From assembly GCF_030028105.1 (NCBI RefSeq), contig NC_092398.1, forward strand, positions 24,319,649 through 24,383,648: DNA of 64,000 nucleotides, read 5' to 3'. Shown here in pieces: positions 11,756 through 63,436 of this stretch (within the stretch, counting starts at the first letter, position 1; each line of letters begins with the position of its first letter). The notes beneath the pieces were generated by a model, which saw only the letters and a program-made list of their open reading frames with translations, searched no databases and was not told the origin of the DNA. Source of the stretch: Mobula birostris (taxonomy: Eukaryota). The translations under genes were made by a program, and so were the position numbers.

Positions 11756-12233
11756 TCAGTGGTTGTAGCAACCTGATCACCCTAATCCAGTAGAATATTC
11801 TCCTGGCTGCAGAGGATGATACAGGATCAAAATAACGGCTGTGTTCGGGTGGATACCCTTCATAGGGAACGCCTCCGTGGCACTTTGTTTCACGTGGGGA
11901 GGATAAAACACGGGCAGCCACCACACGGTATTTGACAGTTCTGGGCGGCCGGGGTCCAGCGGCAAGTAATGAAAGAAGATTGTGGTCTCTGCGCTGCAGC
12001 AGACTTACTCCACCTTCACTGCCATATTACGTGTCCTGTTTCCGTTCCGTGTGGCTATCTTCCTTCTTCGTTCTCTCCTTCTCTCCTCAATACCTCTTCG
12101 CTCAATTATTCAACCCTCTAACTTCCACAATTTTTCCACCACCAGATCAGACATATCGCTCTCTGAAGGAGTGTCCAATTCGACGTTCACTGGGAATCTC
12201 TCCCCCAACAATTTCGCGACCGGTAGATTCAGA

Positions 12234-13076
12234 ATGGAGTGGGGAGCACCTTCCGTCATGACAACGGTCATCCTTATCCTTACCGTCCTACTGGGCGCCC
12301 CGGGAAACGGCGCAGTCATCTGGGTGACGGGCTTCAAGATGAAAAGTAACGTCTGGAATGTGTGCTTCCTGAACCTGGCTGTGGCTGACCTGATTTATTG
12401 CCTGTGTCTCCCCTTATACACTATTCTCCAGCTTAAACCCATTTATTTTTGGCTGGTTGTATTACCCACTATGTTCCTAGTCGCTTTTGCCAGCCTATAT
12501 CTGTTATGCCTGATCAGCATCTACCGCTGCCTGGCTATTACACGGCCCATATGGTTCCAGCAACATCTGAGCCTCGCATGGGTTCGTGTGACCTGCTTCG
12601 TGGTCTGGGTCATAGCCATCGTCATCTTTATGCTTGTATTCTTCTCTTGGTATTTTTCCGTGTGTGCGCTAATTTGGATCACGTTCACCTTCGCCCTCCC
12701 GCCTCTTGTAATTATGATCATTTGCTACGCCTTCGTTGGCCGGAGGCTGCAAGGGGTCAGGCTCGCTGAGTCCAGGAAGCCCATACGCCTGATCGTGACC
12801 ACGGTCGCCGCATTTATGATCTGCTGGCTCCCCAGCACTCTCTACGCCCTCATACCAAACGCCTACATGCAGAGTCATTTTAACTGGTATATACTCACTG
12901 AGGCCCTGGCCTCATTCAACAGCGCCCTCAACCCTCTTATCTACGTCTTCGCCGGCAGCGACTTCCGTCAGGTCTTCAGGCGCTCCATGTTTGCCTCGCT
13001 CCTGCTGGCCTTCACCGAGCATGAGCCAAAGGGTGAGACCGAGACCCGCAATTCCACCTCAAATACGAATGTCTGA
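12234..13076 (+). CDS. Class A GPCR, chemoattractant receptor family (C3aR/FPR/CMKLR1-like), copy 1; 280 aa from the first ATG (frame open from GTG at 11982)
   Basis: 7 hydrophobic segments: TM1 LGAPGNGAVIWVTGFKMK, TM2 FLNLAVADL, TM3 ASLYLLCLISIYRC, PIW in ICL2, TM5 ..IMIICY, TM6 FMICWLP, TM7 LASFNSALNPLIYVFAG, helix 8 DFRQVFRRS. ATG 12234 has a strong Kozak context (agaATGG). Exact orthology cannot be assigned by eye. Confidence 0.9.
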   Translation: MEWGAPSVMTTVILILTVLLGAPGNGAVIWVTGFKMKSNVWNVCFLNLAVADLIYCLCLPLYTILQLKPIYFWLVVLPTMFLVAFASLYLLCLISIYRCLAITRPIWFQQHLSLAWVRVTCFVVWVIAIVIFMLVFFSWYFSVCALIWITFTFALPPLVIMIICYAFVGRRLQGVRLAESRKPIRLIVTTVAAFMICWLPSTLYALIPNAYMQSHFNWYILTEALASFNSALNPLIYVFAGSDFRQVFRRSMFASLLLAFTEHEPKGETETRNSTSNTNV

Positions 13077-17400: not shown

Positions 17401-19620
17401 CCTCCTGCCTGGGCCTCCTGTCCCATGATCCTGTCATATCACTTTTGCCAATCACCTGTCCAGCTCTTAGCTCCATCCCTCTCTCTCCTGTCTTCTCCTA
17501 TCATCTTGGATCTCCCCCTCCTCCTCCCACTTTCAAATCTCTGACTAGCTCTTCCTTCAGTTAGTCGTGACGAAGGGTCTCGGCCAGAAACGTCGACTGT
17601 ACCTCTTCCTAGAGATGCTACCTGGCCTGCTGCGTACACCAGCTGCTTTGATGTGTGTTGCTTGAGTACTTTCTCTGTCGTAATTGTGACTGCTCACACT
17701 TCTCTTCCCTGCCACCTTTGAGTGTCCGTTATACGGATAATTTTCTCCTCAGTGAGGACTGATGCAAAATACTCGTTCAGTTCCACCGCCATCTCCTTAT
17801 CTCCCATTACAATTTCTCCAACATCATTTTCTATCGGTCCTATACCTAGCCTCACCTGTCTTTTTCTCTTCATATACTTGAAAAAGCTTTTAGTATCCTC
17901 TTTGATATTATCTGCTAGCTTCCTTTCATAGTTAATGCTTTCCCTCTTAATGACCTTCTTAGTTTCCTATTGCAAAGTTTTAAAAACTTCCCAATCCTCT
18001 GTCTTCCCACTAATTTTTACTTCCTTGTATGCCCCCTCCATTGTTGTAACTTTGACTATGGCTTTTTCCATTCAAAAATTTCTTCTTTTTTGGAATACAC
18101 CTGTCTTGCACCTTTCTCACTTCTCGCATAAACTCCAGCCACTACCGCTCTGCCGTCCTTCCTGCCAGTGTCCCTTTCTAGTCAACTTTGACCAGTTCCT
18201 CTCTCATGCCGCTGTAATTTCCTTTACTCCACTGAGATACTGACACATCGGATTTCGGCTTCCCTTTTTTCAGATTTCACAGTGAACTCAATCATGTTAT
18301 GATCATTGTCTCCTAAGGGTTCCTTCATCTCAATTTCTCTAATCACCTCGGGTTCATTACACAATACCCAATCCAGTACAGCCGATCCCCTAGTGGGATC
18401 AACAACCTGTTCTAAAAAGCCATCTCGCAGACATTCTACAAATTCTCTTTCTTGAAATCCAGTGCCGACCTGATTTTCCCAATCCACTCGCATGTTAAAA
18501 TCTCCCACAATTTTCATAACATTGCCCTTCTGTCAAGGTTTTTCCATTTCCTTTTGGAAATGTGTAGTACACATTACTGCAGCGGTTTGGAGATCTATAA
18601 ATAACTGCCATCAGGGTCTTCTTACCCCTGCGATTTCTTCGCTCAACCCATAAAGATCCCGTACCTTCCGATCCTATATCACCTCTTTTTAATCATTTAA
18701 TATCATTTCTTACTAATAAACCCACGCCTCCCCCTCTGCCTACCTTCCTATCCTTCCGGTACAGCGTGTGTCCTTGGACGTTCAGCTCCCAGAGACATGC
18801 ATCATTTAGCCAGTTCTCAGTAATGGCCACAATATCATACCTGCCAATCTGTAGCTGTACGACAAGGTGATCCACCTTATTCCTTATGCTGCGTGCATTT
18901 CAATATAACACCTGAAGACCAGTATGTGGTACTTTTCGCTTTGGTTTCGCTGCAACCTTATTACACTGCAACTCATCCCGATGGCTACAAATTTGCCCCA
19001 TCACCTGCCTGTCTTTCCTGGCATTTTTACTGCTCACTATCTTGGATTTGTTTATGTTTTCCCCTTCCTCCGCTCTATCATTCCGGATCCCATCGCCCTG
19101 CCAAACTAGCTTAAACCCTCCCTAACAGCTCTATTAAATCTTCCCGCAAGGATATTGGTCCCCTTCGCGTTCAGTCGTAACCTGTCCCTTTTGAACAGGT
19201 CATATTTCCCCCAGAAGAGATCCCCATTATCCAAGAATCTGAAACCCTGCCCCCTGCACCGCTCTCCAAGCCATGCATTCATCTGCCTGATCTTACTATT
19301 CTTGCCCTCGCTCGCACGTGGCACAGGTAGCAATCCCGAGATTACTACCCTGCAGGTCCTGCTTCTCAGCTTCCTTCCTAACTCCCAGAAATCTCTCTTC
19401 AGGACCTCCTCCCTTGCCCTATCTATGTCATTGGTGCCAACATGTACCAAGACAACTGGCTTCTCGCCCTTCCCCTTCAGAATATTCTGGACCCGATCCG
19501 AGACATCCCGTACCCTGGCACCTGGGAGGCAACACATCATGCGGGTATCTCTATCAGGCTCACAGAATCTCCTGTTCATTCCCCTGACTATGGAATCCCC
19601 TATGACTACCTCTCTGTAGT
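14458..19620 (-). mobile_element. Near full-length decayed CR1 LINE (ORF1 SGNH esterase, APE endonuclease, RT) interrupted by a Penelope element
   Basis: ORF1 VVIGDSIVRG/VHVGTND (19106 ORF); EN DIVAITENWL, RKDR..GRGGGV, GDFN, LDWVL, DHNMI; RT VYLDFQKAF, VPQGSVLGPLLF, KFADDTK; (ACCATAAG)n tail at ~14460. A further CR1 piece lies at 14106-14457. Confidence 0.92.
15790..17661 (+). mobile_element. Penelope-like element (RT + GIY-YIG endonuclease), 5'-truncated, nested in CR1
   Basis: GVAMGTRMGPSY, LRYMDD, PFLD, CSQDEAFHSR, VIYCFQCSRCGLLYIGET..RLGARFAE, VATHFN, QPDGMN; hammerhead-type motif at 17563-17598. Confidence 0.9.
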
Positions 19621-22600
19621 GTGATTTTGAGAATATGATGGGATGTTTTGGGAAATGGATGCAGGTGGCAATGAGACACCAGCCCCATAAACAAAACAGA
19701 AAGAAAGAAAAAGAGGAGGAGCACCCTGTCACGAAGAGTCTCGATGAAAAGCAAGGCCCGGCACCACCAACCGCTCCGCCACCCTACCCACTCAGATCCC
19801 ACCCCCGCCCCCCCCAACGATGCGGGCACACGTACCATTATACCCCCGGATACCGCAAATGGTATCTCTCGAAAGGAGAGATTCTGGTCCTAATATTCTA
19901 CCAAATGGACTGATAAACGAGATAATAGAGATGGTAGCAGCCTGGGTCAGCAGAGTAACCGCACTCGGGAACAATCGGCACATCAGCTCCTGCTGAAGGA
20001 GCTGATGAACCCACACAAGGGGCAGGCGGAGGTGAAGGCAGGGAGGTATAACTGGAGGAAGGGGTACAAACCAGACACATGTCTCAACGAATGGCCATTC
20101 ACTCCTCCACCTCTCCGACAGTTCAGCCTCCAACAATAATGATAGGAGAAACAGCAATATTAAAGCCATGGACGCCTGCAGAGGCCTGAGCTTTTGTAGC
20201 TGAGCTCCCTAATCGAATAAAAAGACCAACAGCGTTCCTCAGTTGGTTGGAACAAATGTGCGAAATTTATAAGCCTCTCCCGGTAGATTTGCGGACTCCT
20301 TTTCAAACGTGCCTATGAATGCTCCTGGGCAGCTTCGAAAGATTCATTCCAGATTCCGCCCGGGAAGAATGCAGATTAGCGGAAAGATGATGAGAAAACA
20401 CCACAGGGTAACGAATCCCTGTGTTCTTGGCTGTCCAATAGAGGGAAGGACGCCATATTGTGGGCAGCACAACGGCATAGGGACTTAGGAGAAGTGACTA
20501 GATGCTTTCAGAAGAAGATTGAAGGAGCCCCTGATTTTATAGCTCGGTTTAAGAATACGTGAGAGGAGTATGCCGGAGTTCCCTTAGAGGAAAATGGGCC
20601 ATTGGCCATCCAGACTCTGCAAAATTTAATGTTGCCCCAACAAGGCAGATTTTTAAAATGCGAGATTTGAACTGGCAGGCTATGCCTTGGTCAAAACTAG
20701 TCACTACTTTGATAAACATGGAAAGGGAGGGAACCTTCGTCGCACCCGGGATGGCCTTCAAACGCATTAGACAAAATTTTACCTACAGGAACAGGAGAGG
20801 GGAAAAGAAAAACGGAGAACATAGAAAAAGAGAGTTGAAAGATCCCAGGATATGTGCCGAAGATGTGGGGAAAATGGACATTGGGCCAAAGAGTGCCGAA
20901 TTCGTGCAAAGCAGGGTCGAAGTACTTCCTATAAAGAACCCACAGATTGGACTGGACAAAACGAGAGAAGGGTGACCTCCTTCTCTTATAGCAACCCTTT
21001 CCCACTGGAATATGGGTCCCAGGGGAGGTGGTGGTATAGGGAACGGTCATATCACTTTCCCAAGACTCCGAAACGCAACCCATGGTAAATCTTAGAATAG
21101 GAGACACTCACTTGGTGGACACTGGCGCTACCCTGTCCTCTGTACCCCCACCCTGGGATTACCCCTGAGCCAGAACAGGTTAGGAACCGTAGTGGTAGCC
21201 GGAATCCCACTGTCAGAACTCTTATCGAAGAAGTTCCCCTTGTCCCTGGGAGACACTTGTATACAAGAAACTTTGATAGTCTCCAATACTACTCCCTTGC
21301 CGCTGTTGGGATGCCAAGCTCTGTGTAAGGTAGGAACTACTATTTACCGCTCTCCTCAGGGCATGTACATGGAAGTACCCTCGCCCCGGACGCATCAGTT
21401 AACGTCCCTGTTTCTCAACCACGAGGCCAAACTCGACCTGGTATTGTAATGCTGGCAACTCGAGGGCAACCCCGACACAGTTAAGATGTACCGGCTGCGG
21501 CCAGAACTTGAGGGGCTGGCGCCGACGGCTCGCACTGAAGCTTTGTGGGGCTTGTTGCAAGTGGTCCGATACTACTCCCGTTTACACTGCACCGCCTGGT
21601 ACACAACGACAGATTATCCAGAATACCGAGAAAAGGCGTACACCCACGAAGGGCTGAAAGCTGAGATACACCCAGACCCTTATCTATATTTTGAGAAGGA
21701 AGGGCTGGGTATCCCGTTACGCCTGACCGCAGAGTAGCAACCCCTGTCCCACCTGGGACCTGCGTCAATACCTCACCTACCCCTTGCTGTACGGCCTCCC
21801 TATCAGGAGAAACAGATAGGCCCAATGATGAAATGGTTGCAATCAGCCCCTATTAACGAGTGCATTGGGGACTTTGAATGGAACGGGCCTGAGGAGGGAA
21901 GAATACACCTTCCGGGAACATCCCGCCAGTTGGAGGACACCCTAACCGAATTTCAACGACAACAACTGCCCGAGCCGCCAGGCCATAGGAGCCCTTCAGC
22001 ATTGGAAAGGGTAAATGCAGACTTGTGGGCCCTCCACAAGACACACGTGGGTCGAGTGCTCACTGCGAGAGACCTCTGTGTCAAGCTAAAAATGAATGCT
22101 GTATTACCATGTGTTAGGCAGTATCGACTAGCAGCTAAGGCAGAAGAAGGCATAGCCCCGGTCAGGGACTCTCTGCTCCAACAGGGGGTTCTCAAGCCTA
22201 CCGTCAGCCCCTGTACACACCAGTACTGCCTATACCTAAAGTTGGACGGCCCAATGAGCATTGCAATTCCCATAGCACCGGTGGTACCTGACGTCAGTAT
22301 GATTGTTCATCCATTCCCTCTGATGCTACTGTCTACACTGTGGTCGACCTGTGCTCCGCGTTTTTTTTCTATTCCTCTCCATCCGGATAGCCAGTATTTG
22401 TTTGCCTTCACATACAAAGGGCATCAGTATACCTGGACCCGATGCCCCAGGGGTATACCGAAATTCCGGCCGTGTACGCTGCTGCCGTTGAACATGACTG
22501 AGACAAGTGTCATCTGGGAGAAAGTTCTATATTAATACAATACGCCGACGATCTGTTGGTGGCGTCAGCTACACTGGCAGAGTGTGTAAAAGACTCAGTG

Positions 22601-24157
22601 ACCCTACTCCAGTTCCTAGCTGCCCGAAGTCATTGGTGGCTAAATCCAAGCTGCAATTTTGTCAGTCACAAGTGCAGTACCTCGGGTTTTCATTGAAGGC
22701 TGGGAATCGAGAGATCGGAGCGGACCGAATACAGACCATTTTACGGATACCGACGCCAAAAACGAAAAAATTCGGGTCGACGGTCAGCTAACAACAGGCA
22801 GAGTCCAGCGGGACTGAGGATGTAGTGGTTGACCGGAGTGGTGTTCATAGGAGCGTTGATTCAGGTGGTGGGAGGGAGCAACACTAACACCTTATTGTTT
22901 CTCTGCCATCCGTATGCTAATAGGTAAAGCTGGGAGCATGCTGCGTATGGGCCGAAATTCCCCAGCTGGTAAAACGATGATCCGTATGTCGGTGGTCCCT
23001 CTTAACCTAAGTGAAGTGACATCAGTAGTTTTGTTTAGTGGGGGCAGGAATGGTTGCAGTGTCAATGGTTCTGAGAACTGGCCAGGATGGCCTTCTGGCT
23101 TTGAAGGATGGTACTATCGGCCTTCTTCCCGCAACCCGTCCAACCTATGGTCAGGAGTTAGTGTAACTCCACCGCAGCGGAACAGTAAAAAAAAACTTCT
23201 GTTACTGCAATAAGAATTAGAGCTGCCCTTACCAAGTAGGGGATTTCTCCTGCTCAAAAATAAGACTGCCTCTGATGACACTCTACCCCGTCCCCTTAAT
23301 GGCAGTTACCCGAAATGATGGAAGACACAGCCGGCAAGGAGCATCTGCTGAGGTGAAGAGGTGTACCCAGGGAAGAAAATACCATTCTGCGATGCATATA
23401 AATTCCCTTATGAGGAGGAGGAGAAAATACCACAGTAAAGAGTGTTAATCTCGAAGATTAACAAGGAGGGAACTATGGAAGAAAAATATCAAAGCTTTAC
23501 ATTGTAATGGACATTGAGGGAATAATGAATTGTTTTTAAATGTTAAATCGAAGTCTATAATCATTTATCTGTAATTAATGTACTCTGTGTGACTGAACTG
23601 TGCCTTGTAACAGAGATATAAAAAATCTCTATCTGTAGTTCTTTGTTCTGAGAAGTTTTATCCGTCTGCGTTTGAGCCAGCTTGCCTGATATATATTTGA
23701 GAACCAAAACTTATGTAAAATGTGTAGCTGCTGGAGGAGTTTTTTTTTTTTTTTTTGCTTCTTCGCTCTTCGGTAGCGTTGCTGGAGTTCCAGCAAAGTA
23801 CTAAGAAACTGATTGCGAAGATTTGCCTTGAAGTCGTCATGCAGGATGCAGTGGACTAATTATACATTGTTCTCTAAAATGATAGACATTGTTTTCTGTA
23901 TATTTGAACGCTAGACAAAGGTTTAAATAAGGAACTATCTGGTCATAAATTGTCCTGAAGCACGTGACATTTACTTCTGTAAAAATCCACTTGTATCTCT
24001 TGTCACGTACCATTCATGCATAAGTATGGCTGAGTTTTCTTGTTTGACAGAGTCCTAAGACGCTGATTTACGAACTTGGGCTCTCCATGATATCATGTGT
24101 CAATAAAGATTTTCCGAAGCGGCTCCCTTCGGGTCTGTGTACTCTTTTTCCGCGGCA
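19621..24157 (+). mobile_element. Same ERV in unit 1, 5'-deleted (no 5' LTR, PBS or gag start)
   Basis: Colinear with 46393-50898: PTAPPPY 19767-19787, CCHC ~20855, DTG 21118, YADD 22541, 3' LTR 23474-24157 then GTCAC. Confidence 0.92.
23474..24157 (+). repeat. 3' LTR of the unit-1 provirus
   Basis: Near-identical to 50218-50898; preceded by the PPT. Confidence 0.92.
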
Positions 24158-26633
24158 GTCACGAATCACTCTAGCACTCATCATGTCTACTGGCAATGTT
24201 GGAACACAAGTGTGGAGGAGATACAGACTCCCAATGAAGAGATGGTGACCAGAGTTCGTTTATAAAATTCGAACAGAACATTCATCGCTTGGTGGATTGC
24301 CACCGTGAGACGTAGCATTCCCAAAACTGGGATCGCGCGATCACGTCTAATTGGAAGACTGCTAACATAAGTAACATGGAATCTCCGAGCCTATCAAAAT
24401 AAAATGAGCAAGTCTAAACAGAAAGCACCGGGACCGCATCCCAAAGAGCGAGTCACTCGAGAAAAAAAAAGTAGGAAGAAATGTCAATCATTGACGTCTC
24501 GTTAAAGTTAACGAATTCGGGTGCGCCAATACTCTCAGAGCTCAACACGCTCCTGGACTCCGCAAAGTCAGCGGCATTACGACCCGAGTAGGCGGTCACT
24601 TCCGACGGATGTACTGTATACGTGCGGCTGCTCTCCTCTTACGCAGATGAAAAGACGTTTTCCATCTTCTGAGATTAATGTGATTATTGGAGTGTATTTT
24701 GTATTGGTTTCCTTCAGGTTTTCGGTATTTCTTTCTTGTGGCCGATTGCCGGTGGGCTGAGCAGGTAATTGTTGCATGTAGAAGGCGATGTTGGGGAATT
24801 TGGAGTCACTGTCCCTGTTCCTTTCAGAAAGTAAGGGGTCGAAAACCTAATGTGTACGGAGTCTATGATTGTTATTGTGGCCGATTCTTTTTTTAATGCC
24901 CGCAAGGGGGAATATTGGGGTCCTCGAGTTACTTTTCTATTTTTTCCGTGCCGAATACTCTGGGGGAGTCGATGTGTTTTCTTTCATCAACATCTACGGT
25001 CTTTCTGTATTTAATCGCTATCCGTAGTAAACAAATATCATCATTTAATCACACATGCAGCGAAAATAAGAGAGATGACAGTGATATGATTAAATTATAC
25101 TGAGTCAACACCCTCCACTATGTCAACAATTCACAATTTCACCCAGGGGGCGACCCTGCTGTTTGTCCTGGGGTTAAGAACTGGGGAAGAAGGCGGGACC
25201 ACGAACATCAGAAGCCCCACCCACCCACCCGACTCAACTTTTTAAAGTAGTTGGCTTCTTAATGCAGTCTGTCCTTCTCTCCTCAGTGACAGGTCCCAAC
25301 AGCACCACTCCGCTCATTGGTATCTCCCGTCACAGCGCTCTCCCACTCGCTCAGCTCCCACTCAGTGGTCGCGCCCGCGCGTATGAACAAAACATGCCGA
25401 CGAGATAGAAGTCCATTGCCAATATAGACAACCGGCTTCCACTTGTATCCTTTGGTGGATAAACATCAACCGGGTGCTTTAGCACAACGGACGAGCTATG
25501 CGGTCGGGTGTAGTGAATGCCGATTCACCGCTCGGAAAACAGACGACAGACACGAACACCGCGGGGCCGCGCCGACTTTCCTGAACTGAAAATGCGCAGT
25601 GGGTGGGGGCTTCTGGGGAATGTACTCTAGATGTTATTGCTTACAGGGCATGCGCTGCGTTGCGGAGCATCCTGAGGAATATAGTAGATTCGGAATACTT
25701 CAACTGCGTATGCGATATAGCTCATGAGCTCTTTGGGAGTCCTGCACCCTCCTGGAAGTTCTTGTTTCACAATCTTATAAGGTCTCAATGATTTCTGCAC
25801 GTTAGACTAGAAATTGCCAGTACAACTTCAAAAGTTAATTTCATTTATCTATGAGATCCAATAAGGCCGGTAAATTTTCCCCATTCCCAACAGCCCTACA
25901 GAAAGATGGGGGTGAACTGCGCCCTTGAATCGCCACAGTCTGTTGAAAGGGACTGCTGGGGCCGAGGATGCAGGGTTCAGAGCCGTTGACGGTGATGGAT
26001 TTCATTTAACTTGCCCGTGATCGAATGGCAGAGCAGACTTGATCGGCCGGCTGGTCTCATTCTCTTGCCTTAAGGTCTTATGAAGTTGGCTAAGCGGATG
26101 GCTCTTAGGTGGTTCGTACTGTTCGCTGCCGCCCCGCCCCCTGCGGGAAAAGCAGCAGGGTTGAGTGGGGGTGTTACCGGAATTGTCCGGGCGAGCAAAC
26201 GATCTGAATTGTGCGGACATACACTGTCCGCCAGTGTTGGAGATTGGTGTCTGACGTCAGGAGTGGCAGGTGAGGGTCTTCTTGTCACACGAGTCAAGCT
26301 TGTTAGCCCTGAGCTGTGCCCCAAACCTAGAAGACGAGTCGATCACTCTTAGTTTGGGGTCTATCATTTGACTTGCTTGGCATGGGTGACCCTAACGAGA
26401 GCGAAAACATAAATCTCTGACTCCAGCCGTCAAAGCTCGCTGGGCCAGTGAGGCAAGCAAGCCGCCAAACTCAACGACTGTCTTCTTGTGGTCCTGTTGG
26501 CCGGCGGTGTGGTAAAGAGAAATGGCTTGGAGAGGGGGCAAGCCCATATCCATTGGATCAGTGAATGTGAGGGGTCGACTAAGGTACTAAGAATCACAAA
26601 GGGACGGCCCAGTGATGGGCACTGCAACAACGA

Positions 26634-32829: not shown

Positions 32830-35800
32830 TAGAGCTAAAAAAAAAAACTGCAAGTGTAAGAAGTCCCTGTCTTAGTCGCTGAAGAACTGAGGGAAAAGTT
32901 TAAGGTAAAAGAACCCTAAGGGTAAAGTGATCATATTATGATTGAATTTATCCTGAAGAAATTGCTCTGAACACATATGTATCAGGTACGACTGCAGAAT
33001 ATAGGTAAGTAGAGTGACCGCAGAATATAGGTAATTAGAGTCATGAGAGAGGCGTTGGCCAGAATAGATAGGAAAAGAACACTTTGGACGTTGGTAGAAC
33101 CGCAATGGCTGGAATTTCCGGAAGCAGCTCGGAAGGCGCAGAATATAAACATCCCAACAGAAGGAAGTATTCTCAAGGCACAATGAAACAATCGTGGGCA
33201 AGAAAAGAAGTTAACGCCAACAGAAATCCAAACGGTAACCAAAAATACAGCGAGATTTACTAGGAATTCAGAGGATTAGGTAGCTTTCAAAAACCAACAG
33301 AAGAAACCTAAAAAGTAATTGAAGATGGAATACGAAGGTAAACTGACCAATAAAATTAAAGAGGATACCAAATATTTCCTACGATAAGTAAAGTGTAAAA
33401 GAGAGACAAGAATGGATGTTGGGCCTCAGTAAATAAATGCTGTTGAGTTAGTAATGGGGGACACGGAATTGGTAGATGATCTGAATAAATATTTTTCATC
33501 TCTACTCACTGTGGAAGACACGAGCAGGATGGGTGTGAATTCACTATTCCTCGACAGCAAGTTCTGGGGTAAATCGAAGGACTGGGATAGATCAGTCATC
33601 TGGAACAGATGGAGTAATCACAAAAAGAAACTCTGCACTGTCCCATCATACAATGTCCGGCAGAAATAAATCCCGTGGCCTCTAATAAATGGAATGTTTT
33701 ATTCTTCATTCCTCTCTGAGTGAAGTATTATCTCATGATGACAACACGTGAAATTGTGCATATTGAGCTTCTTGTAACTTCAAACCCAGAGTGTTTGGAC
33801 GGCTGTAAAAAGATGCTGGAGATGTACTAAAGGCGGACGCGCAAACGGCGGACCACCTGAATAGGTATTTTCCATCAGTGTTCACTGTGGAAGACACCAG
33901 CATGAAGTGTCGGAATTCACTATTCCTTGATAGAAAGTTCTGGGGAATCAAAAGGTCTGAAGGTAGATAAATCACCTGACCTTATGGGGTTAATTTCAGA
34001 AATTTACCACGTGATCGCTTTATCTACTTTACTTCTCAAAAACAAGAGGAAATGTTTTTTCCCTCTGTGCTTTCTGAGTAAAGCATTATCTCATGATTTC
34101 AACAACTCAACTTCTTTATATTGAGCTTCCTGGATCTTCAAACCCAGAGAGTCTCTACCGAGGTGGACGAACTCATCTTTTCGCTCATTCGGAACCAAGG
34201 CCCCATCTTTACTAAATCAGCATCCAAATTCAGCACAAGACACAACTCCTCGATCTACCTCGAGCACTTAGGAAATCCCACCGTCCGTCTCTGTGCAAGT
34301 CCCGTTCAAGATTACTTTCGTGCGCTCAGGAGAACTTAACGTCTAAGTACAAGACTCCAAAACTGCTGAGGACCGGGAAGGAGCCGGAGGTTCCAGGGAA
34401 AGGTGAGATGCATTTCCACGGGTTTTATATTAATTTGGCAATGTGGTGGCTGATCAGGGATCATCAGCGTGGCGGCGTTGTGGAAGGAGGCCTGCCTTAC
34501 TACTTTCGGGAGGTTTTTCAGGAGAGTATATTCTCTTAGGCAATGAAGGCAGGGCAGTGGGATTATCAATATGCAGTTCAGTGAGGAGAACTTCAGAGGT
34601 TAGAAAGCCTGGGCTTGTTTTTCATGCGGCGGAAAGCAGCTTACGGATGGCCTAACAAAGGAAATTAAGATACTAGCTATAGAGATGGTGCAGACAGGTA
34701 GAATCGCTTTTCCATTGTAGGAGCAACATTGAGGGTAAGGCTTATATTTATCTCGAGCGGAGACTTAACCGAATATAAAGGCTAGGCTATTTTAAAGTTA
34801 ATTTTAATTTTTAGTTAGATTTGGAGATAAAGTACGGTAATCAGCCCTTCCGACCCGACGAGACCGTGCCGCCCAATTACTGTCATGTGATCAATTAACC
34901 TACTGGCGTCTCGAGTTTCTGGGGTTGACAGGTTTGTCATATGAGGCACTCACTTCTACTCACTGAAATTCAGAAGAATTGGTGGGCGGGGGGGAAGTCT
35001 TCATAGAAAGCTGTTCAATGTGAAAAGGCCTCGAAAGAGTGGATGTAGAATAGATGTTTCCTATGGGAAGTAGGCTAAGACTAGACGACACAGCCGCAGA
35101 ATGCAGGGCCGTTCTTTTAACAGGGAGCTTATGAGCACTTTGGAAAGCCATTCTACAGTACTCTGCAAAGTGTCTTAGGCACATACTGTATTTAGAGACA
35201 CACGTGGAGCAGCCCTTTCTGCCATCTAGCCCGCACCGCCAGCAGCCAACCTATTTAATCGCAGCCTTTTCGCAGGATATTTTACAATGATCAAATAACC
35301 TCATAACTAGTACGTCTGTTGAACGTGGAGAAACCGGAGTACCCGGAGCAAACTCACACGGTCTCGGGAACTTGTATCAGTGGTTGTAGCAACCTGATCA
35401 CCCTAATCCAGTAGAATATTCTCCTGGCTGCAGAGGATGATACAGGATCAAAATAACGGCTGTGTTCGGGTGGATACCCTTCATAGGGAACGCCTCCGTG
35501 GCACTTTGTTTCACGTGGGGAGGATAAAACACGGGCAGCCACCACACGGTATTTGACAGTTCTGGGCGGCCGGGGTCCAGCGGCAAGTAATGAAAGAAGA
35601 TTGTGGTCTCTGCGCTGCAGCAGACTTACTCCACCTTCACTGCCATATTACGTGTCCTGTTTCCGTTCCGTGTGGCTATCTTCCTTCTTCGTTCTCTCCT
35701 TCTCTCCTCAATACCTCTTCGCTCAATTATTCAACCCTCTAACTTCCACAATTTTTCCACCACCAGATCAGACATATCGCTCTCTGAAGGAGTGTCCAAT

Positions 35801-35854
35801 TCGACGTTCACTGGGAATCTCTCCCCCAACAATTTCGCGACCGGTAGATTCAGA

Positions 35855-36697
35855 ATGGAGTGGGGAGCACCTTCCGTCATGACAACGGTCATCCTTATCC
35901 TTACCGTCCTACTGGGCGCCCCGGGAAACGGCGCAGTCATCTGGGTGACGGGCTTCAAGATGAAAAGTAACGTCTGGAATGTGTGCTTCCTGAACCTGGC
36001 TGTGGCTGACCTGATTTATTGCCTGTGTCTCCCCTTATACACTATTCTCCAGCTTAAACCCATTTATTTTTGGCTGGTTGTATTACCCACTATGTTCCTA
36101 GTCGCTTTTGCCAGCCTATATCTGTTATGCCTGATCAGCATCTACCGCTGCCTGGCTATTACACGGCCCATATGGTTCCAGCAACATCTGAGCCTCGCAT
36201 GGGTTCGTGTGACCTGCTTCGTGGTCTGGGTCATAGCCATCGTCATCTTTATGCTTGTATTCTTCTCTTGGTATTTTTCCGTGTGTGCGCTAATTTGGAT
36301 CACGTTCACCTTCGCCCTCCCGCCTCTTGTAATTATGATCATTTGCTACGCCTTCGTTGGCCGGAGGCTGCAAGGGGTCAGGCTCGCTGAGTCCAGGAAG
36401 CCCATACGCCTGATCGTGACCACGGTCGCCGCATTTATGATCTGCTGGCTCCCCAGCACTCTCTACGCCCTCATACCAAACGCCTACATGCAGAGTCATT
36501 TTAACTGGTATATACTCACTGAGGCCCTGGCCTCATTCAACAGCGCCCTCAACCCTCTTATCTACGTCTTCGCCGGCAGCGACTTCCGTCAGGTCTTCAG
36601 GCGCTCCATGTTTGCCTCGCTCCTGCTGGCCTTCACCGAGCATGAGCCAAAGGGTGAGACCGAGACCCGCAATTCCACCTCAAATACGAATGTCTGA
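35855..36697 (+). CDS. Chemoattractant-family GPCR, copy 2
   Basis: Protein identical to copy 1 (ORF 35603-36697). Confidence 0.9.
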   Translation: MEWGAPSVMTTVILILTVLLGAPGNGAVIWVTGFKMKSNVWNVCFLNLAVADLIYCLCLPLYTILQLKPIYFWLVVLPTMFLVAFASLYLLCLISIYRCLAITRPIWFQQHLSLAWVRVTCFVVWVIAIVIFMLVFFSWYFSVCALIWITFTFALPPLVIMIICYAFVGRRLQGVRLAESRKPIRLIVTTVAAFMICWLPSTLYALIPNAYMQSHFNWYILTEALASFNSALNPLIYVFAGSDFRQVFRRSMFASLLLAFTEHEPKGETETRNSTSNTNV

Positions 36698-44620: not shown

Positions 44621-45110
44621 TTGTTTGGTTTTTATTTTTTGCCACCGTCCTATCCTGAGTTTTTAAAGTCAACATCAATCCAATACTTAAGATATATCAA
44701 TGCCATCTGACCAGGAGAGAGGTTATCTTTGCGAAACTTTCTGGAGGAAATTACTTCAGCAATGTGGACTAAGCTGAGGTCTACCGACAGATGGAGATGG
44801 AAGAAGAGTCCAAAGTATTTCTCAGTATAAATACTCACAAACAGCCTTATCGCTGTAATAGGCTTATTTGGCAGTAAAATCTACACCTGCTCTCAGGCAG
44901 AACACTATGGGCCAGGTATTGCAAGGCTCCCAGGGAGTTACAGACATCATGGTTACCAGTAAATATGACAATGAACATCTCCAAAGTCCATGAAACCGTT
45001 GAAAGGATTAAAAGATTTGGGGCTCTGAGCACGACACATATTCTGTACACTTCTGCCAACTACCTGTCATTTAGATCATTCATTTAGAATTTAAGCGTAT
45101 ATGAAGTCAC

Positions 45111-45783
45111 TATGGAAGAGAAATATCAATGGTTTACATTGTAATGGGCATTGAGGGAATAATGAATTGTTTTTAAATGAGAACTCGAAATCTATAAGCA
45201 TTTATCTGTAATTAACGTACTCTGTGTGACTGAAATGCGCCCTGCAGCCGAGATACAAAAATAACTGTATTTGTACTTCCTTGTTCTGAGAATTTTCATG
45301 TTTCTGCGTTTGCGCCAGCTTGCCTGATATACCTTCGAGAACTAACACTTAGGTAAAATGTGTAGCTGCTCAACGACATTTTTTTTGCTACTTCGCTATT
45401 CGGTAGCGTTGCTGGAGTTCCGCTAAAAATACTGAGAAACTGATTGCTAAGCTTTGCCTTGAAGTCGTCATGCAGAACGCAGTGTACTACTTATACATGG
45501 TCTTCCAAAATGTTAGACATTGTTCTCCGTAAATGCTAGACAAAGGTTCAAATAAAGAATTATCTGGTCATACAATGTCGCGAGGCACGTGACCATAGTG
45601 TTGTAAAAATCCACCTCAGTGTCTCTTCTCACGTACCATTCATGTATAAATATGACCGAGATTTCTTGTATGACAGAGTTCCAAGACCCCGCTTTCAGGG
45701 GTTCGGGCTCGCTTTGATATCATGTATCAATAAAGATTATCGGAAGCAGCTTCTTCGAGTCCGAGTATGCTGTTTCCGCGACA
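45111..45783 (+). repeat. 5' LTR of the ERV (unit 2 only)
   Basis: Starts TATGGAAG and ends CCGCGACA; TATAAA at 45645, AATAAA at 45729; homologous to 50218-50898; followed by the PBS. Confidence 0.92.
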
Positions 45784-45786
45784 AAT

Positions 45787-45804
45787 TGGCGATGAGGATG
45801 TGAT
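45787..45804 (+). promoter_or_regulatory. Primer-binding site, tRNA-Ser(GCT)
   Basis: TGGCGATGAGGATGTGAT matches 16/18 nt of TGGCGACGAGGATGGGAT, the complement of the vertebrate tRNA-Ser(GCT) 3' end as recalled; 3 nt downstream of the LTR. Confidence 0.8.
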
Positions 45805-47830: not shown

Positions 47831-49534
47831 ATCTTAGAATAGGAGACACTCACTTGGTGGACACTGGCGCTACCCTGTCCTCTGTACCCCCACCCTGGGA
47901 TTACCCCTGAGCCAGAACAGGTTAGGAACCGTAGTGGTAGCCGGAATCCCACTGTCAGAACTCTTATCGAAGAAGTTCCCCTTGTCCCTGGGAGACACTT
48001 GTATACAAGAAACTTTGATAGTCTCCAATACTACTCCCTTGCCGCTGTTGGGATGCCAAGCTCTGTGTAAGGTAGGAACTACTATTTACCGCTCTCCTCA
48101 GGGCATGTACATGGAAGTACCCTCGCCCCGGACGCATCAGTTAACGTCCCTGTTTCTCAACCACGAGGCCAAACTCGACCTGGTATTGTAATGCTGGCAA
48201 CTCGAGGGCAACCCCGACACAGTTAGGATGTACCGGCTGCGGCCAGAACTTGAGGGGCTGGCGCCGACGGCTCGCACTGAAGCTTTGTGGGGCTTGTTGC
48301 AAGTGGTCCGATACTACTCCCGTTTACACTGCACCGCCTGGTAGACAACGACAGATGATCCAGAATACCGAGAAAAGGCGTACACCCACGAAGGGCTTAA
48401 AGCTGAGATACACCCAGACCCTTATCTATATTTTGAGAAGGAAGGGCTGGGTATCCCGTTACGCCTGACCGCAGAGTAGCAACCCCTGTCCCACCTGGGA
48501 CCTGCGTCAATACCTCACCTACCCCTTGCTGTACGGCCTCCCTATCAGGAGAAACAGATAGGCCCAATGATGAAACGGTTGCAATCAGCCCCTATTATCG
48601 AGTGCATTGGGGACTTTGAATGGAACGGGCCTGAGGAGGGAAGAATACACCTTCCAGGAACATCCCGCCAGTTGGAGGACCCCCTAACCGAATTTCAACG
48701 ACAACAACTGCCCGAGCCGCCAGGCCATAGGAGCCCTTCAGCATTGGAAAGGGTAAATGCAGACTTGTGGGCCCTCCACAAGACACACGTGGGTCGAGTG
48801 GTCACTGCGAGAGACCTCTGTGTCAAGCTAAAAATGAATGCTGTATTACCATGTGTTAGGCAGTATCGACTAGCAGCTAAGGCAGAAGAAGGCATAGCCC
48901 CGGTCAGGGACTCTCTGCTCCAACAGGGGGTTCTCAAGCCTACCGTCAGCCCCTGTACAGACCAGTACTGCCTATACCTAAAGTTGGACGGCCCAATGAG
49001 CATTGCAATTCCCATAGCACCGGTGGTACCTGACGTCAGTATGATTGTTTCATCCATTCCCTCTGATGCTACTGTCTACACTGTGGTCGACCTGTGCTCC
49101 GCGTTTTTTTTCTATTCCTCTCCATCCGGATAGCCAGTATTTGTTTGCCTTCACATACAAAGGGCATCAGTATACCTGGACCCGATGCCCCAGGGGTATA
49201 CCGAAATTCCGGCCGTGTACGCTGCTGCAGTTGAACATGACTGAGACAAGTGTCATCTGGGAGAAAGTTCTATATTAATACAATACGCCGACGATCTGTT
49301 GGTGGCGTCAGCTACACTGGAAGAGTGTGTAAAAGACTCAGTGACCCTACTCCAGTTCCTAGCTGCCCGAAGTCATTGGTGGCTAAATCCAAGCTGCAAT
49401 TTTGTCAGCCACAAGTGCAGTACCTCGGGTGTTCATTGAAGGCTGGGAATCGAGAGATCGTAGCGGACCGAATACAGACCATTTTACAGACACCGACGCC
49501 AAAAACGAAAAAATTCGGGTCGACGGTCAGCTAA
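47824..49534 (+). pseudogene. pol: ERV pro-pol: protease, 2H-phosphodiesterase-like insert, RT (truncated before RNase H/integrase)
   Basis: LVDTGATLS (DTG at 47860), LLG; LHCTA (48327) and PHLPLAV (48516); RT VVDLCSAFF/SIPLHPDSQYLFAFTYKGHQYTWTR, QYADDLLVA (49284), KLQFCQPQVQYLG; several stops and frameshifts. Confidence 0.9.
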
Positions 49535-50217: not shown

Positions 50218-50898
50218 TATGGAAGAAAAATATCAAAGCTTTACATTGTAATGGACATTGAGGGAATAATGAATTGTTTTTAAATGTTAAATCGAAGTCT
50301 ATAATCATTTATCTGTAATTAATGTACTCTGTGTGACTGAACTGTGCCTTGTAACAGAGATATAAGAAATCTCTATCTGTAGTTCTTTGTTCTGAGAAGT
50401 TTTATCCGTCTGCGTTTGAGCCAGCTTGCCTGATATATATTTGAGAACCAAAACTTATGTAAAATGTGTAGCTGCTGGAGGAGTTTTTTTTTTTTTTGCT
50501 TCTTCGCTATTCGGTAGCGTTGCTGGAGTTCCAGCAAAGTACTAAGAAACTGATTGCGAAGATTTGCCTTGAAGTCGTCATGCAGGATGCAGTGGACTAA
50601 TTATACATTGTTCTCTAAAATGATAGACATTGTTTTCTGTATATTTAAATGCTAGACAAAGGTTTAAATAAGGAACTATCTGGTCATAAATTGTCCTGAA
50701 GCACGTGACATTTACTTCTGTAAAAATCCACTTGTATCTCTTGTCACGTACCATTCATGCATAAGTATGGCTGAGTTTTCTTGTTTGACAGAGTCCTAAG
50801 ACGCTGATTTTCGAACTTGGGCTCTCCATGATATCATGTGTCAATAAAGATTTTCCGAAGCGGCTCCCTTCGGGTCTGTGTACTCTTTTTCCGCGACA
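50218..50898 (+). repeat. 3' LTR of the unit-2 provirus
   Basis: Homologous to the 5' LTR; AATAAA at 50843; ends ...GCGACA followed by TSD GTCAC. Confidence 0.92.
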
Positions 50899-53373
50899 GT
50901 CACGAATCACTCTAGCACTCATCATGTCTACTGGCAATGTTGGAACACAAGTGTGGAGGAGATACAGACTCCCAATGAAGAGATGGTGACCAGAGTTCGT
51001 TTATAAAATTCCAACAGAACATTCATCGCTTGGTGGATTGCCACCGTGAGACGTAGCATTCCCAAAACTGGGATCGCGCGATCACGTCTAATTGGAAGAC
51101 TGCTAACATAAGTAACATGGAATCTCCGAGCCTATCAAAATAAAATGAGCAAGTCTAAACAGAAAGCACCGGGACCGCATCCCAAAGAGCGAGTCACTCG
51201 AGAAAAAAAAAGTAGGAAGAAATGTCAATCATTGACGTCTCGTTAAAGTTAACGAATTCGGGTGCGCCAATACTCTCAGAGCTCAACACGCTCCTGGACT
51301 CCGCAAAGTCAGCGGCATTACGACCCGAGTAGGCGGTCACTCCCGACGGATGTACTGTATACGTGCGGCTGCTCTCCTCTTACGCAGATGAAAAGACGTT
51401 TTCCATCTTCTGAGATTAATGTGATTATTGGAGTGTATTTTGTATTGGTTTCCTTCAGGTTTTCGGTATTTCTTTCTTGTGGCCGATTGCCGGGGGGCTG
51501 AGCTGGTAATTGTTGCATGTAGAAGGCGATGTTGGGGAATTTGGAGTCACTGTCCCTGTTCCTTTCAGAAAGTAAGGGGTCGAAAACCTAATCTGTACGG
51601 AGTCTTTGATTGTTATTGTGGCCGATTCTTTTTTTAATGCCCGCAAGGGGGAATATTGGGGTCCTCGAGTTATTTTTCTATTTTTTCCGTGCCGAATACT
51701 CTGGGGGAGTCGATGTGTTTTCTTTCATCAACATCTACGGTCTTTCTTTATTTAATCGCTATCCGTAGTAAACAAATATCATCATTTAATCACACATGCA
51801 GCGAAAATAAGAGAGATGACAGTGATATGATTAAATTATACTGAGTCAACACCCTCCACTATGTCAACAATTCACAATTTCACCCAGGGGGCGACCCTGC
51901 TGCTTGTCCTGGGGTTAAGAACTGGGGAAGAAGGCGGGACCACGAACATCAGAAGCACCACCCACCCACCCGACTCAACTTTTTAAAGTAGTTGGCTTCT
52001 TAATGCAGTCTGTCCTTCTCTCCTCAGTGACAGGTCCCAACAGCACCACTCCGCTCATTGGTATCTCCCGTCACAGCGCTCTCCCACTCGCTCAGCTCCC
52101 ACTCAGTGGTCGCGCCCGCGCGTATGAACAAAACATGCCGACGAGATAGAAGTCCATTGCCAATATAGACAACCGGCTTCCACTTGTATCCTTTGGTGGA
52201 TAAACATCAACCGGGTGCTTTAGCACAACGGACGAGCTATGCGGTCGGGTGTAGTGAATGCCGATTCACCGCTCGGAAAACAGACGACAGACACGAACAC
52301 CGCGGGGCCGCGCCGACTTTCCTGAACTGAAAATGCGCAGTGGGTGGGGGCTTCTGGGGAATGTACTCTAGATGTTATTGCTTACAGGGCATGCGCTGCG
52401 TTGCGGAGCATCCTGAGGAATATAGTAGATTCGGAATACTTCAACTGCGTATGCTCTATAGCTCATGAGCTCTTTGGGAGTCCTGCACCCTCCTGGAAGT
52501 TCTTGTTTCACAATCTTATAAGGTCTCAATGATTTCTGCACGTTAGACTAGAAATTGCCAGTACAACTTCAAAAGTTAATTTCATTTATCTATGAGATCC
52601 AATAAGGCCGGTAAATTTTCCCCATTCCCAACAGCCTCCAGAAAGATGGGGGTGAACTGCGCCCTTGAATCGCCACAGTCTGTTGAAAGGGACTGCTGGG
52701 GCCGAGGATGCAGGGTTCAGAGCCGTTGACGGTGATGGATTTCATTTAACTTGCCCGTGATCGAATGGCAGAGCAGACTTGATCGGCCGGCTGGTCTCAT
52801 TCTCTTGCCTTAAGGTCTTATGAAGTTGGGACAGCGGATGGCTCTTAGGTGGTTCGCACTGTTCGCTGCCGCCCCGCCCCCTGCGGGAAAAGCAGCAGGG
52901 TTGAGTGGGGGTGTTACCGGAATTGTCCGGGCGAGCAAACGATCTGAATTGTGCGGACATACATTGTCCGCCAGTGTTGGAGATTGGTGTCTGACGTCAG
53001 GAGTGGCAGGTGAGGGTCTTCTTGTCACACGAGTCAAGCTTGTTAGCCCTGAGCTGTACCCCAAACCTAGAAGACGAGTCGATCACTCTTAGTTTGGGGT
53101 CTATCCTTTGACTTGCTTGGCATGGGTGACCCTAACGAGAGCGAAAACATAAATCTCTGACTCCAGCCGTCAAAGCTCGCTGGGCCAGTGAGGCAAGCAA
53201 GCCGCCAAACTCAACGACTGTCTTCTTGTGGTCCTGTTGGCCGGCGGTGTGGTAAAGAGAAATGGCTCGGAGAGGGGGCAAGCCCATATCCATTGGATCA
53301 GTGAATGTGAGGGGTCGACTAAGGTACTAAGAATCACAAAGGGACGGCCCAGTGATGGGCACTGCAACAACGA

Positions 53374-62500: not shown

Positions 62501-62593
62501 ACCAGATCAGACATATCGCTCTCTGAAGGAGTGTCCAATTCGACGTTCACTGGGAATCTCTCCCCCAACAATTTCGCGACCGGTAGATTCAGA

Positions 62594-63436
62594 ATGGAGT
62601 GGGGAGCACCTTCCGTCATGACAACGGTCATCCTTATCCTTACCGTCCTACTGGGCGCCCCGGGAAACGGCGCAGTCATCTGGGTGACGGGCTTCAAGAT
62701 GAAAAGTAACGTCTGGAATGTGTGCTTCCTGAACCTGGCTGTGGCTGACCTGATTTATTGCCTGTGTCTCCCCTTATACACTATTCTCCAGCTTGAACCC
62801 ATTTATTTTTGGCTGGTTGTATTACCCACTATGTTCCTAGTCGCTTTTGCCAGCCTATATCTGTTATGCCTGATCAGCATCTACCGCTGCCTGGCTATTA
62901 CACGGCCCATATGGTTCCAGCAACATCTGAGCCTCGCATGGGTTCGTGTGACCTGCTTCGTGGTCTGGGTCATAGCCATCGTCATCTTTATGCTTGTATT
63001 CTTCTCTGGGTATTTTTCCGTGTGTGCGCTAATTTGGATCACGTTCACCTTCGCCCTCCCGCCTCTTGTAATTATGATCATTTGCTACGCCTTCGTTGGC
63101 CGGAGGCTGCAAGGGGTCAGGCTCGCTGAGTCCAGGAAGCCCATACGCCTGATCGTGACCACGGTCGCCGCATTTATGATCTGCTGGCTCCCCAGCACTC
63201 TCTACGCCCTCATACCAAACGACTACATGCAGAGTCATTTTAACTGGTATATACTCACTGAGGCCCTGGCCTCATTCAACAGCGCCCTCAACCCTCTTAT
63301 CTACGTCTTCGCCGGCAGCGACTTCCGTCAGGTCTTCAGGCGCTCCATGTTTGCCTCGCTCCTGCTGGCCTTCACCGAGCATGAGCCAAAGGGTGAGACC
63401 GAGACCCGCAATTCCACCTCAAATACGAATGTCTGA
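62594..63436 (+). CDS. Chemoattractant-family GPCR, copy 3
   Basis: ORF 62342-63436; differs from copy 1 at three nucleotides (62795, 63008, 63222: K>E, W>G, A>D). Confidence 0.9.
   Translation: MEWGAPSVMTTVILILTVLLGAPGNGAVIWVTGFKMKSNVWNVCFLNLAVADLIYCLCLPLYTILQLEPIYFWLVVLPTMFLVAFASLYLLCLISIYRCLAITRPIWFQQHLSLAWVRVTCFVVWVIAIVIFMLVFFSGYFSVCALIWITFTFALPPLVIMIICYAFVGRRLQGVRLAESRKPIRLIVTTVAAFMICWLPSTLYALIPNDYMQSHFNWYILTEALASFNSALNPLIYVFAGSDFRQVFRRSMFASLLLAFTEHEPKGETETRNSTSNTNV

What the first reader, a model, noticed from the sequence alone, without database searches (positions are those of the whole stretch)
21450..21840. 2H-phosphodiesterase-like domain embedded between retroviral protease and RT
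Seen: ORFs 21192, 21486 and 21825 share one frame, broken only by single stops. Between protease and RT they read ...YSRLHCTAWY...(63 aa His to His)...ASIPHLPLAVRPPYQEKQIGPMMK. HCT (21585) is a canonical HxT motif like CNPase LHCT; HLP (21774) is one base from HLS or HLT. The same is at 48327/48516, with an extra stop. Known: paired HxT/S motifs define 2H phosphoesterases; coronavirus ns2 and rotavirus VP3 use this fold to destroy 2-5A; 2H domains have been noted in some teleost retroviral polyproteins. Inference: this retrovirus packaged a nucleotide-messenger-degrading or RNA/tRNA-end-processing enzyme in Pol, a possible innate-immune antagonist whose function is uncharacterised to my knowledge. 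These copies are dead.
Basis: partly seen in the sequence, partly recalled or inferred. Interest (0 to 1): 0.8.

Follow-up and report, generated by a model that had tools for sequence, protein, structure and literature searches.

The report
CNPase-like enzyme inside fish retrovirus Pol
A long-dead endogenous retrovirus, likely in a cartilaginous-fish genome, carries between its protease and reverse transcriptase a conserved domain predicted to fold like the host enzyme CNPase, which in the active virus likely opened cyclic-phosphate ends of RNA rather than destroying the immune messenger 2-5A; such domains were already noted in bony-fish retroviruses.

Summary
Window 21420-21959 is a ~175-aa domain between protease and RT of a decayed gamma/epsilon-like provirus. 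Read with X at its two stops and folded with 116 relatives, it gives a confident model (pLDDT 90) whose best match is vertebrate CNPase (Z 15.3, rmsd 3.5 Å over 176 residues). All other 2H enzymes, including ns2, VP3, AKAP18 and the cGAMP phosphodiesterases, score Z 7.1 or less. Paired His-x-Thr/Ser motifs occur in 107 of 150 database hits (shuffles: 15); this copy's second motif has decayed. The copy at 48327/48516 is a 99%-identical segmental duplicate, not independent support. The idea of a 2-5A antagonist is weak: the fold is CNPase-type, and the domain is conserved in teleost and newt retroviruses whose host lineages reportedly lost OAS-RNase L. The best reading is a virion-packaged 2',3'-cyclic phosphodiesterase (untested). 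2H/CNPase domains in fish retroviruses are in print (Mazumder 2002 and Basta 2009, via reviews), and this scan reported the same thing four times on other genomes. Verdict: real, a new member of a known kind, function open.

The parts
21420..21959 (+). CNPase-type 2H phosphoesterase domain of Pol (broken by two in-frame stops)
   Evidence: AF2 model pLDDT 90.1, pTM 0.84; Foldseek CNPase E 4e-6, TMq 0.69; VIA Z 15.3 to 2xmi
21585..21593 (+). first 2H motif, His-Cys-Thr (canonical)
   Evidence: His in 22 of 24 own-genome rows and 86 of 92 database rows of alignment A2
21774..21782 (+). second 2H motif, degenerate here (His-Leu-Pro)
   Evidence: canonical in dispersed relatives and in one older duplicate of the same insertion, L017
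21807..21845 (+). helix after the second motif strand, placed like CNPase helix alpha7
   Evidence: helix 130-142 in the model; Gly at His2+15 in 78 of 86 database rows and in host CNPase
19618..21050 (+). gag remnant (5'-truncated in this array unit) with nucleocapsid zinc knuckle at about 20855-20899
   Evidence: zf-CCHC E 4.3e-6; junction 19618 matches 46390
21080..21419 (+). retroviral protease remnant, frameshifted; active-site motif at 21118-21129
   Evidence: sequence; RVP E 7.7e-7 in the colinear relative L022
21990..22770 (+). reverse transcriptase remnant, frameshifted, cut by an internal deletion that removed RNase H, integrase and most or all of env
   Evidence: RVT_1 weak in the window; older duplicates continue into RNase H and integrase past the break; RT of relative L022 is closest to MLV RT, E 1e-38
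23474..24157 (+). 3' LTR of the finding's copy, followed by GTCAC at 24158-24162
45111..45783 (+). 5' LTR of the second copy, preceded by target-site duplication GTCAC (45106-45110)
   Evidence: LTR-LTR K2P 0.171 over 669 sites
45787..45804 (+). primer-binding site, 16 of 18 matches to host tRNA-Ser(GCU) 3' end
48162..48701 (+). second copy of the 2H domain (segmental duplicate, three stops)
50218..50898 (+). 3' LTR of the second copy, preceded by a polypurine tract and followed by GTCAC (50899-50903)

Best explanation
This is a dead gamma/epsilon-like endogenous retrovirus whose Pol carries, between protease and RT, a domain predicted to have the CNPase-type 2H fold; in the active virus it was likely packaged with Gag-Pol and likely worked as a 2',3'-cyclic phosphodiesterase. 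It would open cyclic-phosphate ends to a 2'-phosphate and a free 3'-OH, either on RNA inside the particle (primer tRNA, nicked genome, breaks that RT must extend from) or on small 2',3'-cyclic nucleotides. Shown: position, conservation of both motifs across relatives, decay of this copy. Predicted: the fold and its closeness to CNPase. Inferred: origin by capture of a CNPase-like catalytic domain, packaging, release by the viral protease, catalytic activity and substrate.
For: Fold: CNPase is the only Z>=8 match among 48,161 chains (15.3, rmsd 3.5, 176 aligned; next 7.1). All rows shown among the 50 Foldseek PDB matches with E<=0.001 are CNPase or goldfish RICH. CNPase-specific features: a helix right after the second motif strand, which PMC4643303 calls unique to CNPases among 2H enzymes and links to stereospecificity; Gly at His2+15 in 78 of 86 database rows, as in host CNPase; an aromatic at His1+5 (Phe235 position) in 66 of 86. 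Conservation: motif pair in 107 of 150 hits vs 14.6 in shuffles, and in 12 of 20 aligned dispersed own-genome copies, many only 23-32% identical to the window. Position: all 36 long hits are Pol proteins; 17 have protease upstream, 27 have RT downstream, 13 have both. The fold also occurs in three viral-library entries, two named walleye retrovirus Env. CNPase gives 2'-phosphate products (PMC4643303), and 2H enzymes heal cyclic RNA ends (PMC9503650).
Against: No activity was tested, and 2H folds switch substrates readily. Sequence identity to CNPase is only 14-18%. PF05881 matched none of the 26 copies and only the host gene in the genome; profile comparison with the host exon gave probability 2.7%, E 0.017. 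CNPase Arg307 (His2-2) is Arg in 0 of 90 rows, and the Val321 position is Lys/Arg in 67 of 89, so the pocket differs. Most retroviruses replicate without such a domain (recalled), so it is not a core RT requirement. The model is of a dead copy with X at the breaks; a first model from 26 rows reached only pLDDT 58 and Z 5.2.
Confidence: 0.55

Rival explanations
1. The domain destroys a cyclic dinucleotide or other nucleotide messenger (cGAMP, as poxvirus cGAMP PDE and phage Acb1 do) and so dampens STING sensing of reverse-transcribed DNA.
For: The viral cGAMP-cleaving 2H enzymes are fold relatives (7t27 Z 5.9, 9bkq Z 5.2). cGAS-STING is present across jawed fish (recalled), unlike OAS-RNase L. 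A basic residue at the Val321 position could suit a larger, more charged substrate.
Against: These enzymes score about 10 Z units below CNPase. The alpha7 helix would narrow the cleft (inference). Gag-Pol copy number per particle is low (recalled).
Confidence: 0.15
2. The domain is a 2',5'-phosphodiesterase that degrades 2-5A and blocks RNase L, like coronavirus ns2 and rotavirus VP3.
For: Same superfamily (4z5v Z 6.8, 6o3v Z 5.8, 4rpt Z 5.5). The host has an OAS cluster of about 7 genes on C36. A cartilaginous fish has a coupled OASa-RNase L pair (PMC10400998).
Against: The fold is far closer to CNPase. The domain is conserved in retroviruses of Danio, Perca, Corythoichthys, Hypomesus and Pleurodeles, lineages reported to have lost OASa and RNase L. 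A PF06479 search of this host found only two IRE1-type genes among 26 scored candidates, which is weak evidence of absence.
Confidence: 0.08
3. The domain works on ADP-ribose-1''-2''-cyclic phosphate or related NAD-derived products, together with the macro domains that some fish retroviruses carry.
For: Plant CPDase 1fsi is a fold relative (Z 6.0). Macro domains are reported in epsilon-like fish ERVs (PMC4977317). 2H domains are implicated in cADPr processing (PMC9503650).
Against: No macro domain in the 36 long hits (Pfam E<=1e-4) or in this provirus. CPDase scores far below CNPase.
Confidence: 0.1
4. The domain is mainly a binding module or decoy, for example against host CNP, an interferon-induced protein that binds Gag and blocks HIV-1 assembly.
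For: Host CNP restricts HIV-1 assembly through Gag (Wilson 2012, as summarised in PMC3832489). The viral domain mimics CNP's catalytic fold.
Against: Both catalytic motifs are strongly conserved, which argues for catalysis. The domain lacks CNP's N-terminal domain and membrane anchor. No evidence was seen that CNP restricts fish retroviruses.
Confidence: 0.07

Closest known systems
2H/CNPase domains of fish retroviruses (Mazumder et al. 2002, via PMC9503650; Basta et al. 2009, via PMC4977317; neither original was held)
   Same: A 2H phosphoesterase domain in epsilon-like fish retroviruses and ERVs. Teleost Pol proteins with the same domain in the same place are found by profile search. Walleye dermal sarcoma virus, named in PMC9503650, is a structural hit.
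   Different: The host here is likely a cartilaginous fish: the best hit is a sawshark protein at E 2.5e-38, next 2e-14. The reviews do not state the position in Pol or any activity. The walleye hits are labelled Env polyprotein, not Pol.
Vertebrate CNPase / fish RICH catalytic domain (PDB 2xmi, 1woj, 2i3e; Pfam PF05881)
   Same: Predicted fold (Z 15.3), two HxT/S motifs, helix after motif 2, Gly at His2+15, aromatic at His1+5.
   Different: 14-18% identity; no PF05881 match; no PNK-like N-terminal domain or prenylation tail; Arg307 absent; shorter loop before motif 2; encoded without introns inside a viral polyprotein.
Viral 2',5'-phosphodiesterases (MHV ns2, rotavirus VP3, AKAP7/18) and cGAMP PDEs (Acb1, penguinpox PDE)
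   Same: 2H superfamily, virus-encoded.
   Different: Structural scores of Z 5.2-6.8, far below CNPase; the host range of the retroviral domain does not follow OAS-RNase L.

Membership tests
2H phosphoesterase superfamily | two His-x-Thr/Ser motifs | tested here: met
   Met for the family: 107 of 150 hits, 12 of 20 dispersed own-genome copies. In the window's own copy the second motif has decayed.
2H phosphoesterase superfamily | two-lobed 2H fold | tested here: met
   Model pLDDT 90; ranks 1-19 of the wide search are known 2H structures
CNPase (vertebrate CNP/RICH) | closest fold, with helix alpha7 after the second motif | tested here: met
   Z 15.3 vs 7.1 or less; helix 130-142; Gly spacing. 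The equivalence to alpha7 is inferred from position; coordinates were not inspected.
CNPase (vertebrate CNP/RICH) | sequence family PF05881 | tested here: not met
   0 of 26 copies, 0 of 36 long hits; the genome search finds only the host gene
CNPase (vertebrate CNP/RICH) | substrate-site residues Tyr168, Phe235, Arg307, Val321 | tested here: inconclusive
   Aromatic on the first strand in 63 of 65 rows and at the Phe235 position in 66 of 86; Arg307 in 0 of 90; Val321 position mostly Lys/Arg. Equivalences are by motif spacing.
CNPase (vertebrate CNP/RICH) | hydrolyses 2',3'-cyclic phosphate to 2'-phosphate | not testable with these tools
   needs an enzyme assay
Viral 2',5'-PDE (ns2/VP3/AKAP7 type) | closest structural neighbour among 2H enzymes | tested here: not met
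   Z 5.2-6.8 vs 15.3 for CNPase
Viral 2',5'-PDE (ns2/VP3/AKAP7 type) | cleaves 2-5A; host has OAS-RNase L | tested here: inconclusive
   Host OAS present; RNase L not found; activity untested
Class I (gamma/epsilon-like) endogenous retrovirus | LTRs with target-site duplication, tRNA primer-binding site, gag-pro-pol order | tested here: met
   LTR pair, 5-bp GTCAC duplication, tRNA-Ser(GCU) site 16 of 18; zinc knuckle, protease, RT
Class I (gamma/epsilon-like) endogenous retrovirus | RT groups with gamma/epsilon retroviruses | tested here: inconclusive
   RT of L022 best matches MLV RT (E 1e-38; foamy 7e-26; HERV-K/HIV weaker); no tree was built, and epsilon RTs are not in the PDB set

The most novel reading that the evidence does not exclude
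Fish and amphibian retroviruses captured a CNPase catalytic domain early in jawed-vertebrate evolution and placed it at least twice (in Pol between protease and RT; in Env of the walleye viruses), so that each particle carries an end-healing enzyme. It turns nuclease-cut, cyclic-phosphate ends of primer tRNA or genome back into 3'-OH ends that RT can extend: a retroviral RNA-repair counter-defence that mirrors phage tRNA repair.
Probability: 0.22. Interest if true: 0.75.

Novelty: new member of a known kind. Interest (0 to 1): 0.38.

Why it matters
An extra enzyme inside retroviral Pol, kept with both catalytic motifs across cartilaginous-fish, teleost and newt retroviruses, points to an unstudied step in retroviral replication or host conflict. 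The structural tie to CNPase, whose own physiological substrate is unsettled and which restricts HIV-1, makes a simple assay informative for both. The locus itself is a dead, duplicated passenger and adds little beyond one more host lineage.

Tried and rejected
Sequence-only searches of the window domain found nothing: Pfam 0 families, PDB one chance hit at E 2, word-index search 0 of 602 candidates, profile A1 against PDB 0. Pfam on 26 copies gave only weak single-member hits to 2_5_RNA_ligase2 (E 0.023) and LigT_PEase (E 0.24) among eight unrelated weak families. The profile of A2 against PDB showed only protease and RT among the 60 of 275 matches displayed. The first fold (26 rows) was poor: pLDDT 58, no Foldseek match at E<=0.001. 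Word-index searches with P0004 and P0025 added 0 and 3 proteins. The ESM Atlas gave no result. Rejected: the second window copy as independent evidence; the degenerate second motif as a family trait (canonical in relatives); a domesticated host gene (stops, frameshifts, LTRs 17% diverged). RNase L was not found in the host, but the search scores only top candidates. Fungal Trl1 CPDase was not listed in the wide search, which does not exclude it. No RT or 2H tree, dN/dS or expression analysis was done. PMC8672886 (zebrafish ERV survey) has no mention of the domain in its main text; its supplements were not read.

Full report
Observation. The motifs and frame are as described: His-Cys-Thr at 21585, His-Leu-Pro at 21774, one frame from 21096 to 22535 with stops at 21447 and 21735. 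The protease active-site motif and the RT catalytic motif lie in other frames, so pol is also frameshifted. The second copy (48327/48516) belongs to a 99.2%-identical segmental duplicate and adds no independent support. Alone, the window's motifs are weak: one HxT/S plus a His at this spacing arises in 17% of shuffles, and Pfam and PDB sequence searches were blank.

The element. The second array unit holds both ends of the provirus: a 5' LTR (45111-45783), a primer-binding site matching host tRNA-Ser(GCU) at 16 of 18 bases, gag with a zinc knuckle, protease, the domain, a part of RT, a polypurine tract and a 3' LTR (50218-50898), flanked by a 5-bp duplication GTCAC. The LTRs differ by K2P 0.171 over 669 sites, so the insertion is old; no rate was applied. 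The finding's copy has lost the 5' LTR and the start of gag. Both window copies lack RNase H and integrase, which older duplicates still show. The RT of a colinear relative is closest to MLV RT (E 1e-38; foamy 7e-26), which fits a gamma/epsilon-like virus; no tree was built. The genome is 4.0 Gb. The best database relative is a sawshark protein, and another is from a bamboo shark, so the host is likely a cartilaginous fish (inference).

Copies in this genome. A protein search gave 81 matching rows, a lower bound since 150 of 281 candidates were scored. Twenty copies lie in one region of C34. In 17 of them the second motif reads as in the window, in 2 it is otherwise degenerate, and in 1 older duplicate it is canonical; that duplicate shares the 5' flank of the window's provirus. 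The loss is therefore post-insertion decay. I fetched 29 dispersed loci and aligned 20 in A2, leaving out 9 with frameshifts or partial cover; 12 of the 20 keep both canonical motifs, although many are only 23-32% identical to the window.

Relatives elsewhere. A profile of 26 copies found 169 proteins at E<=0.001 among 1.84 billion. Of the 150 listed, 107 carry two HxT/S motifs 55-70 aa apart, against a mean of 14.6 and a maximum of 26 in 200 shuffles; 21 of the 43 misses have a motif in their first 60 residues and may be cut short. All 36 hits longer than 420 aa are Pol proteins: protease upstream in 17, RT downstream in 27, both in 13. Of 20 clusters looked up, 7 carried names: sawshark, bamboo shark, two Danio species, pipefish, perch, smelt and the newt Pleurodeles give 8 in all when cluster members are counted. 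Alignment A2 used 93 of the 150 hits, 58 of them picked for having motifs, so its column counts lean towards conservation; one search is the unbiased count.

Fold. With 26 rows the model was poor (pLDDT 58), yet its top Foldseek rows were plant CPDase and CNPase. With 117 rows it reached pLDDT 90.1 and pTM 0.84. Foldseek gave 50 PDB matches at E<=0.001, and all rows shown are CNPase or RICH (best E 4e-6, TMq 0.69). The wide search gave CNPase Z 15.3 (rmsd 3.5, 176 aligned), then other 2H enzymes at 7.1 or less: ns2 6.8, plant CPDase 6.0, Acb1 5.9, VP3 5.8, penguinpox cGAMP PDE 5.2, AKAP18 5.2. In the viral library the three matches at E<=0.001 are an unnamed entry (Q2VF30, TMq 0.77) and two walleye retrovirus entries labelled Env.

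CNPase features. PMC4643303 (passages read) says helix alpha7 and the loop before it are unique to CNPases among 2H enzymes, names Tyr168 and Phe235 as crucial for binding, and gives a 2'-phosphate product. The model has a helix at the matching place (130-142). A Gly at His2+15 is shared by host CNPase and 78 of 86 database rows; an aromatic at His1+5 is in 66 of 86. Against this: Arg307 is absent (0 of 90), the Val321 position is mostly basic (67 of 89), identity is 14-18%, and PF05881 does not match. The domain thus works like a CNPase by fold but is not a PF05881 member.

How it likely works. Shown: a conserved two-motif domain in Pol between protease and RT. Predicted: a CNPase-type fold. 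Inferred: it was made as part of Gag-Pol, packaged, perhaps released by the protease, and opened 2',3'-cyclic phosphates to 2'-phosphate and 3'-OH. A free 3'-OH is what RT needs, so healing of primer tRNA or genome breaks is my preferred substrate, with small cyclic nucleotides as the alternative (0.55 together). The 2-5A reading is weakened by the fold and by host range: PMC10400998 (passages read) reports loss of OASa and RNase L in ray-finned fishes and in Anura plus Caudata, where many named relatives come from. This host has OAS genes; RNase L was not found, which is weak evidence. cGAMP cleavage (0.15), ADP-ribose cyclic phosphate processing (0.10), 2-5A cleavage (0.08) and a decoy against host CNP (0.07; PMC3832489 passages) remain open.

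What is known. PMC4977317 (passages) states that some epsilon-like fish ERVs encode a CNPase or a macro domain, citing Basta 2009. PMC9503650 (passages) lists 2H domains in fish retroviruses and walleye dermal sarcoma virus, citing Mazumder 2002. Neither original, nor Wilson 2012, was held, so I could not see whether they give the position in Pol. PMC5434554 was seen as a listing and two passages and added nothing; PMC8672886 and PMC2790309 were term-searched without a relevant hit. Ten literature searches showed no functional test of the retroviral domain and no report of it in cartilaginous fish; the library lacks most subscription papers, and no supplements were read. This scan has four earlier reports of the same domain in other shark and ray genomes, all reaching a similar reading; they are not independent evidence.

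Verdict. A real CNPase-type 2H domain in the Pol of a dead fish endogenous retrovirus: a new member of a known kind, function untested, interest 0.38.

Noticed in passing
window 11973-13076, 35594-36697, 62333-63436 (+): An intact single-exon chemoattractant-type GPCR frame (best PDB match C3a receptor, E 5e-43; also FPR2 and CMKLR1) in all three array units. The roughly 24-27 kb tandem array is probably a receptor gene cluster in which the provirus is a passenger.
   Followed up: partly
G000 C34:23.83-24.65 Mb: At least 20 copies of the domain region: 17 on + at 24.20-24.65 Mb and 3 older ones on - at 23.83-23.99 Mb (83-88% nt identity to the window; 2 of the 3 shown to share the 5' flank). 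Decay steps can be ordered along the array history.
   Followed up: partly
G000 C36:30.62-30.91 Mb (L054-L057): A tandem cluster of about 7 OAS1_C-containing genes; no RNase L found by PF06479, only two IRE1 genes.
   Followed up: partly
viral structure library, Q9WHI8 and A4GTG3: Walleye epidermal hyperplasia virus 1 and walleye dermal sarcoma virus entries labelled Envelope polyprotein match the model (TMq 0.70 and 0.66), so the same fold seems to sit in Env there. The best hit, Q2VF30, is unnamed in the tool.
   Followed up: no
G000 C17:5-85 Mb: 67 of 79 matches to the tRNA-Ser(GCU) 3'-end pattern are scattered singly along one contig; the one checked lies beside a tRNA-Pro, which suggests a dispersed tRNA-carrying repeat.
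   Followed up: no
window 19109-19783 (-) and other minus-strand remnants: A GDSL/SGNH esterase-like frame (E 3e-10) next to endonuclease and RT remnants, typical of CR1/L2-type LINE ORF1 (label recalled).
   Followed up: no
G000 C38:43.56-43.57 Mb (L051-L053): The host CNPase gene; its catalytic domain is split over three exons, with both motifs intact.
   Followed up: partly
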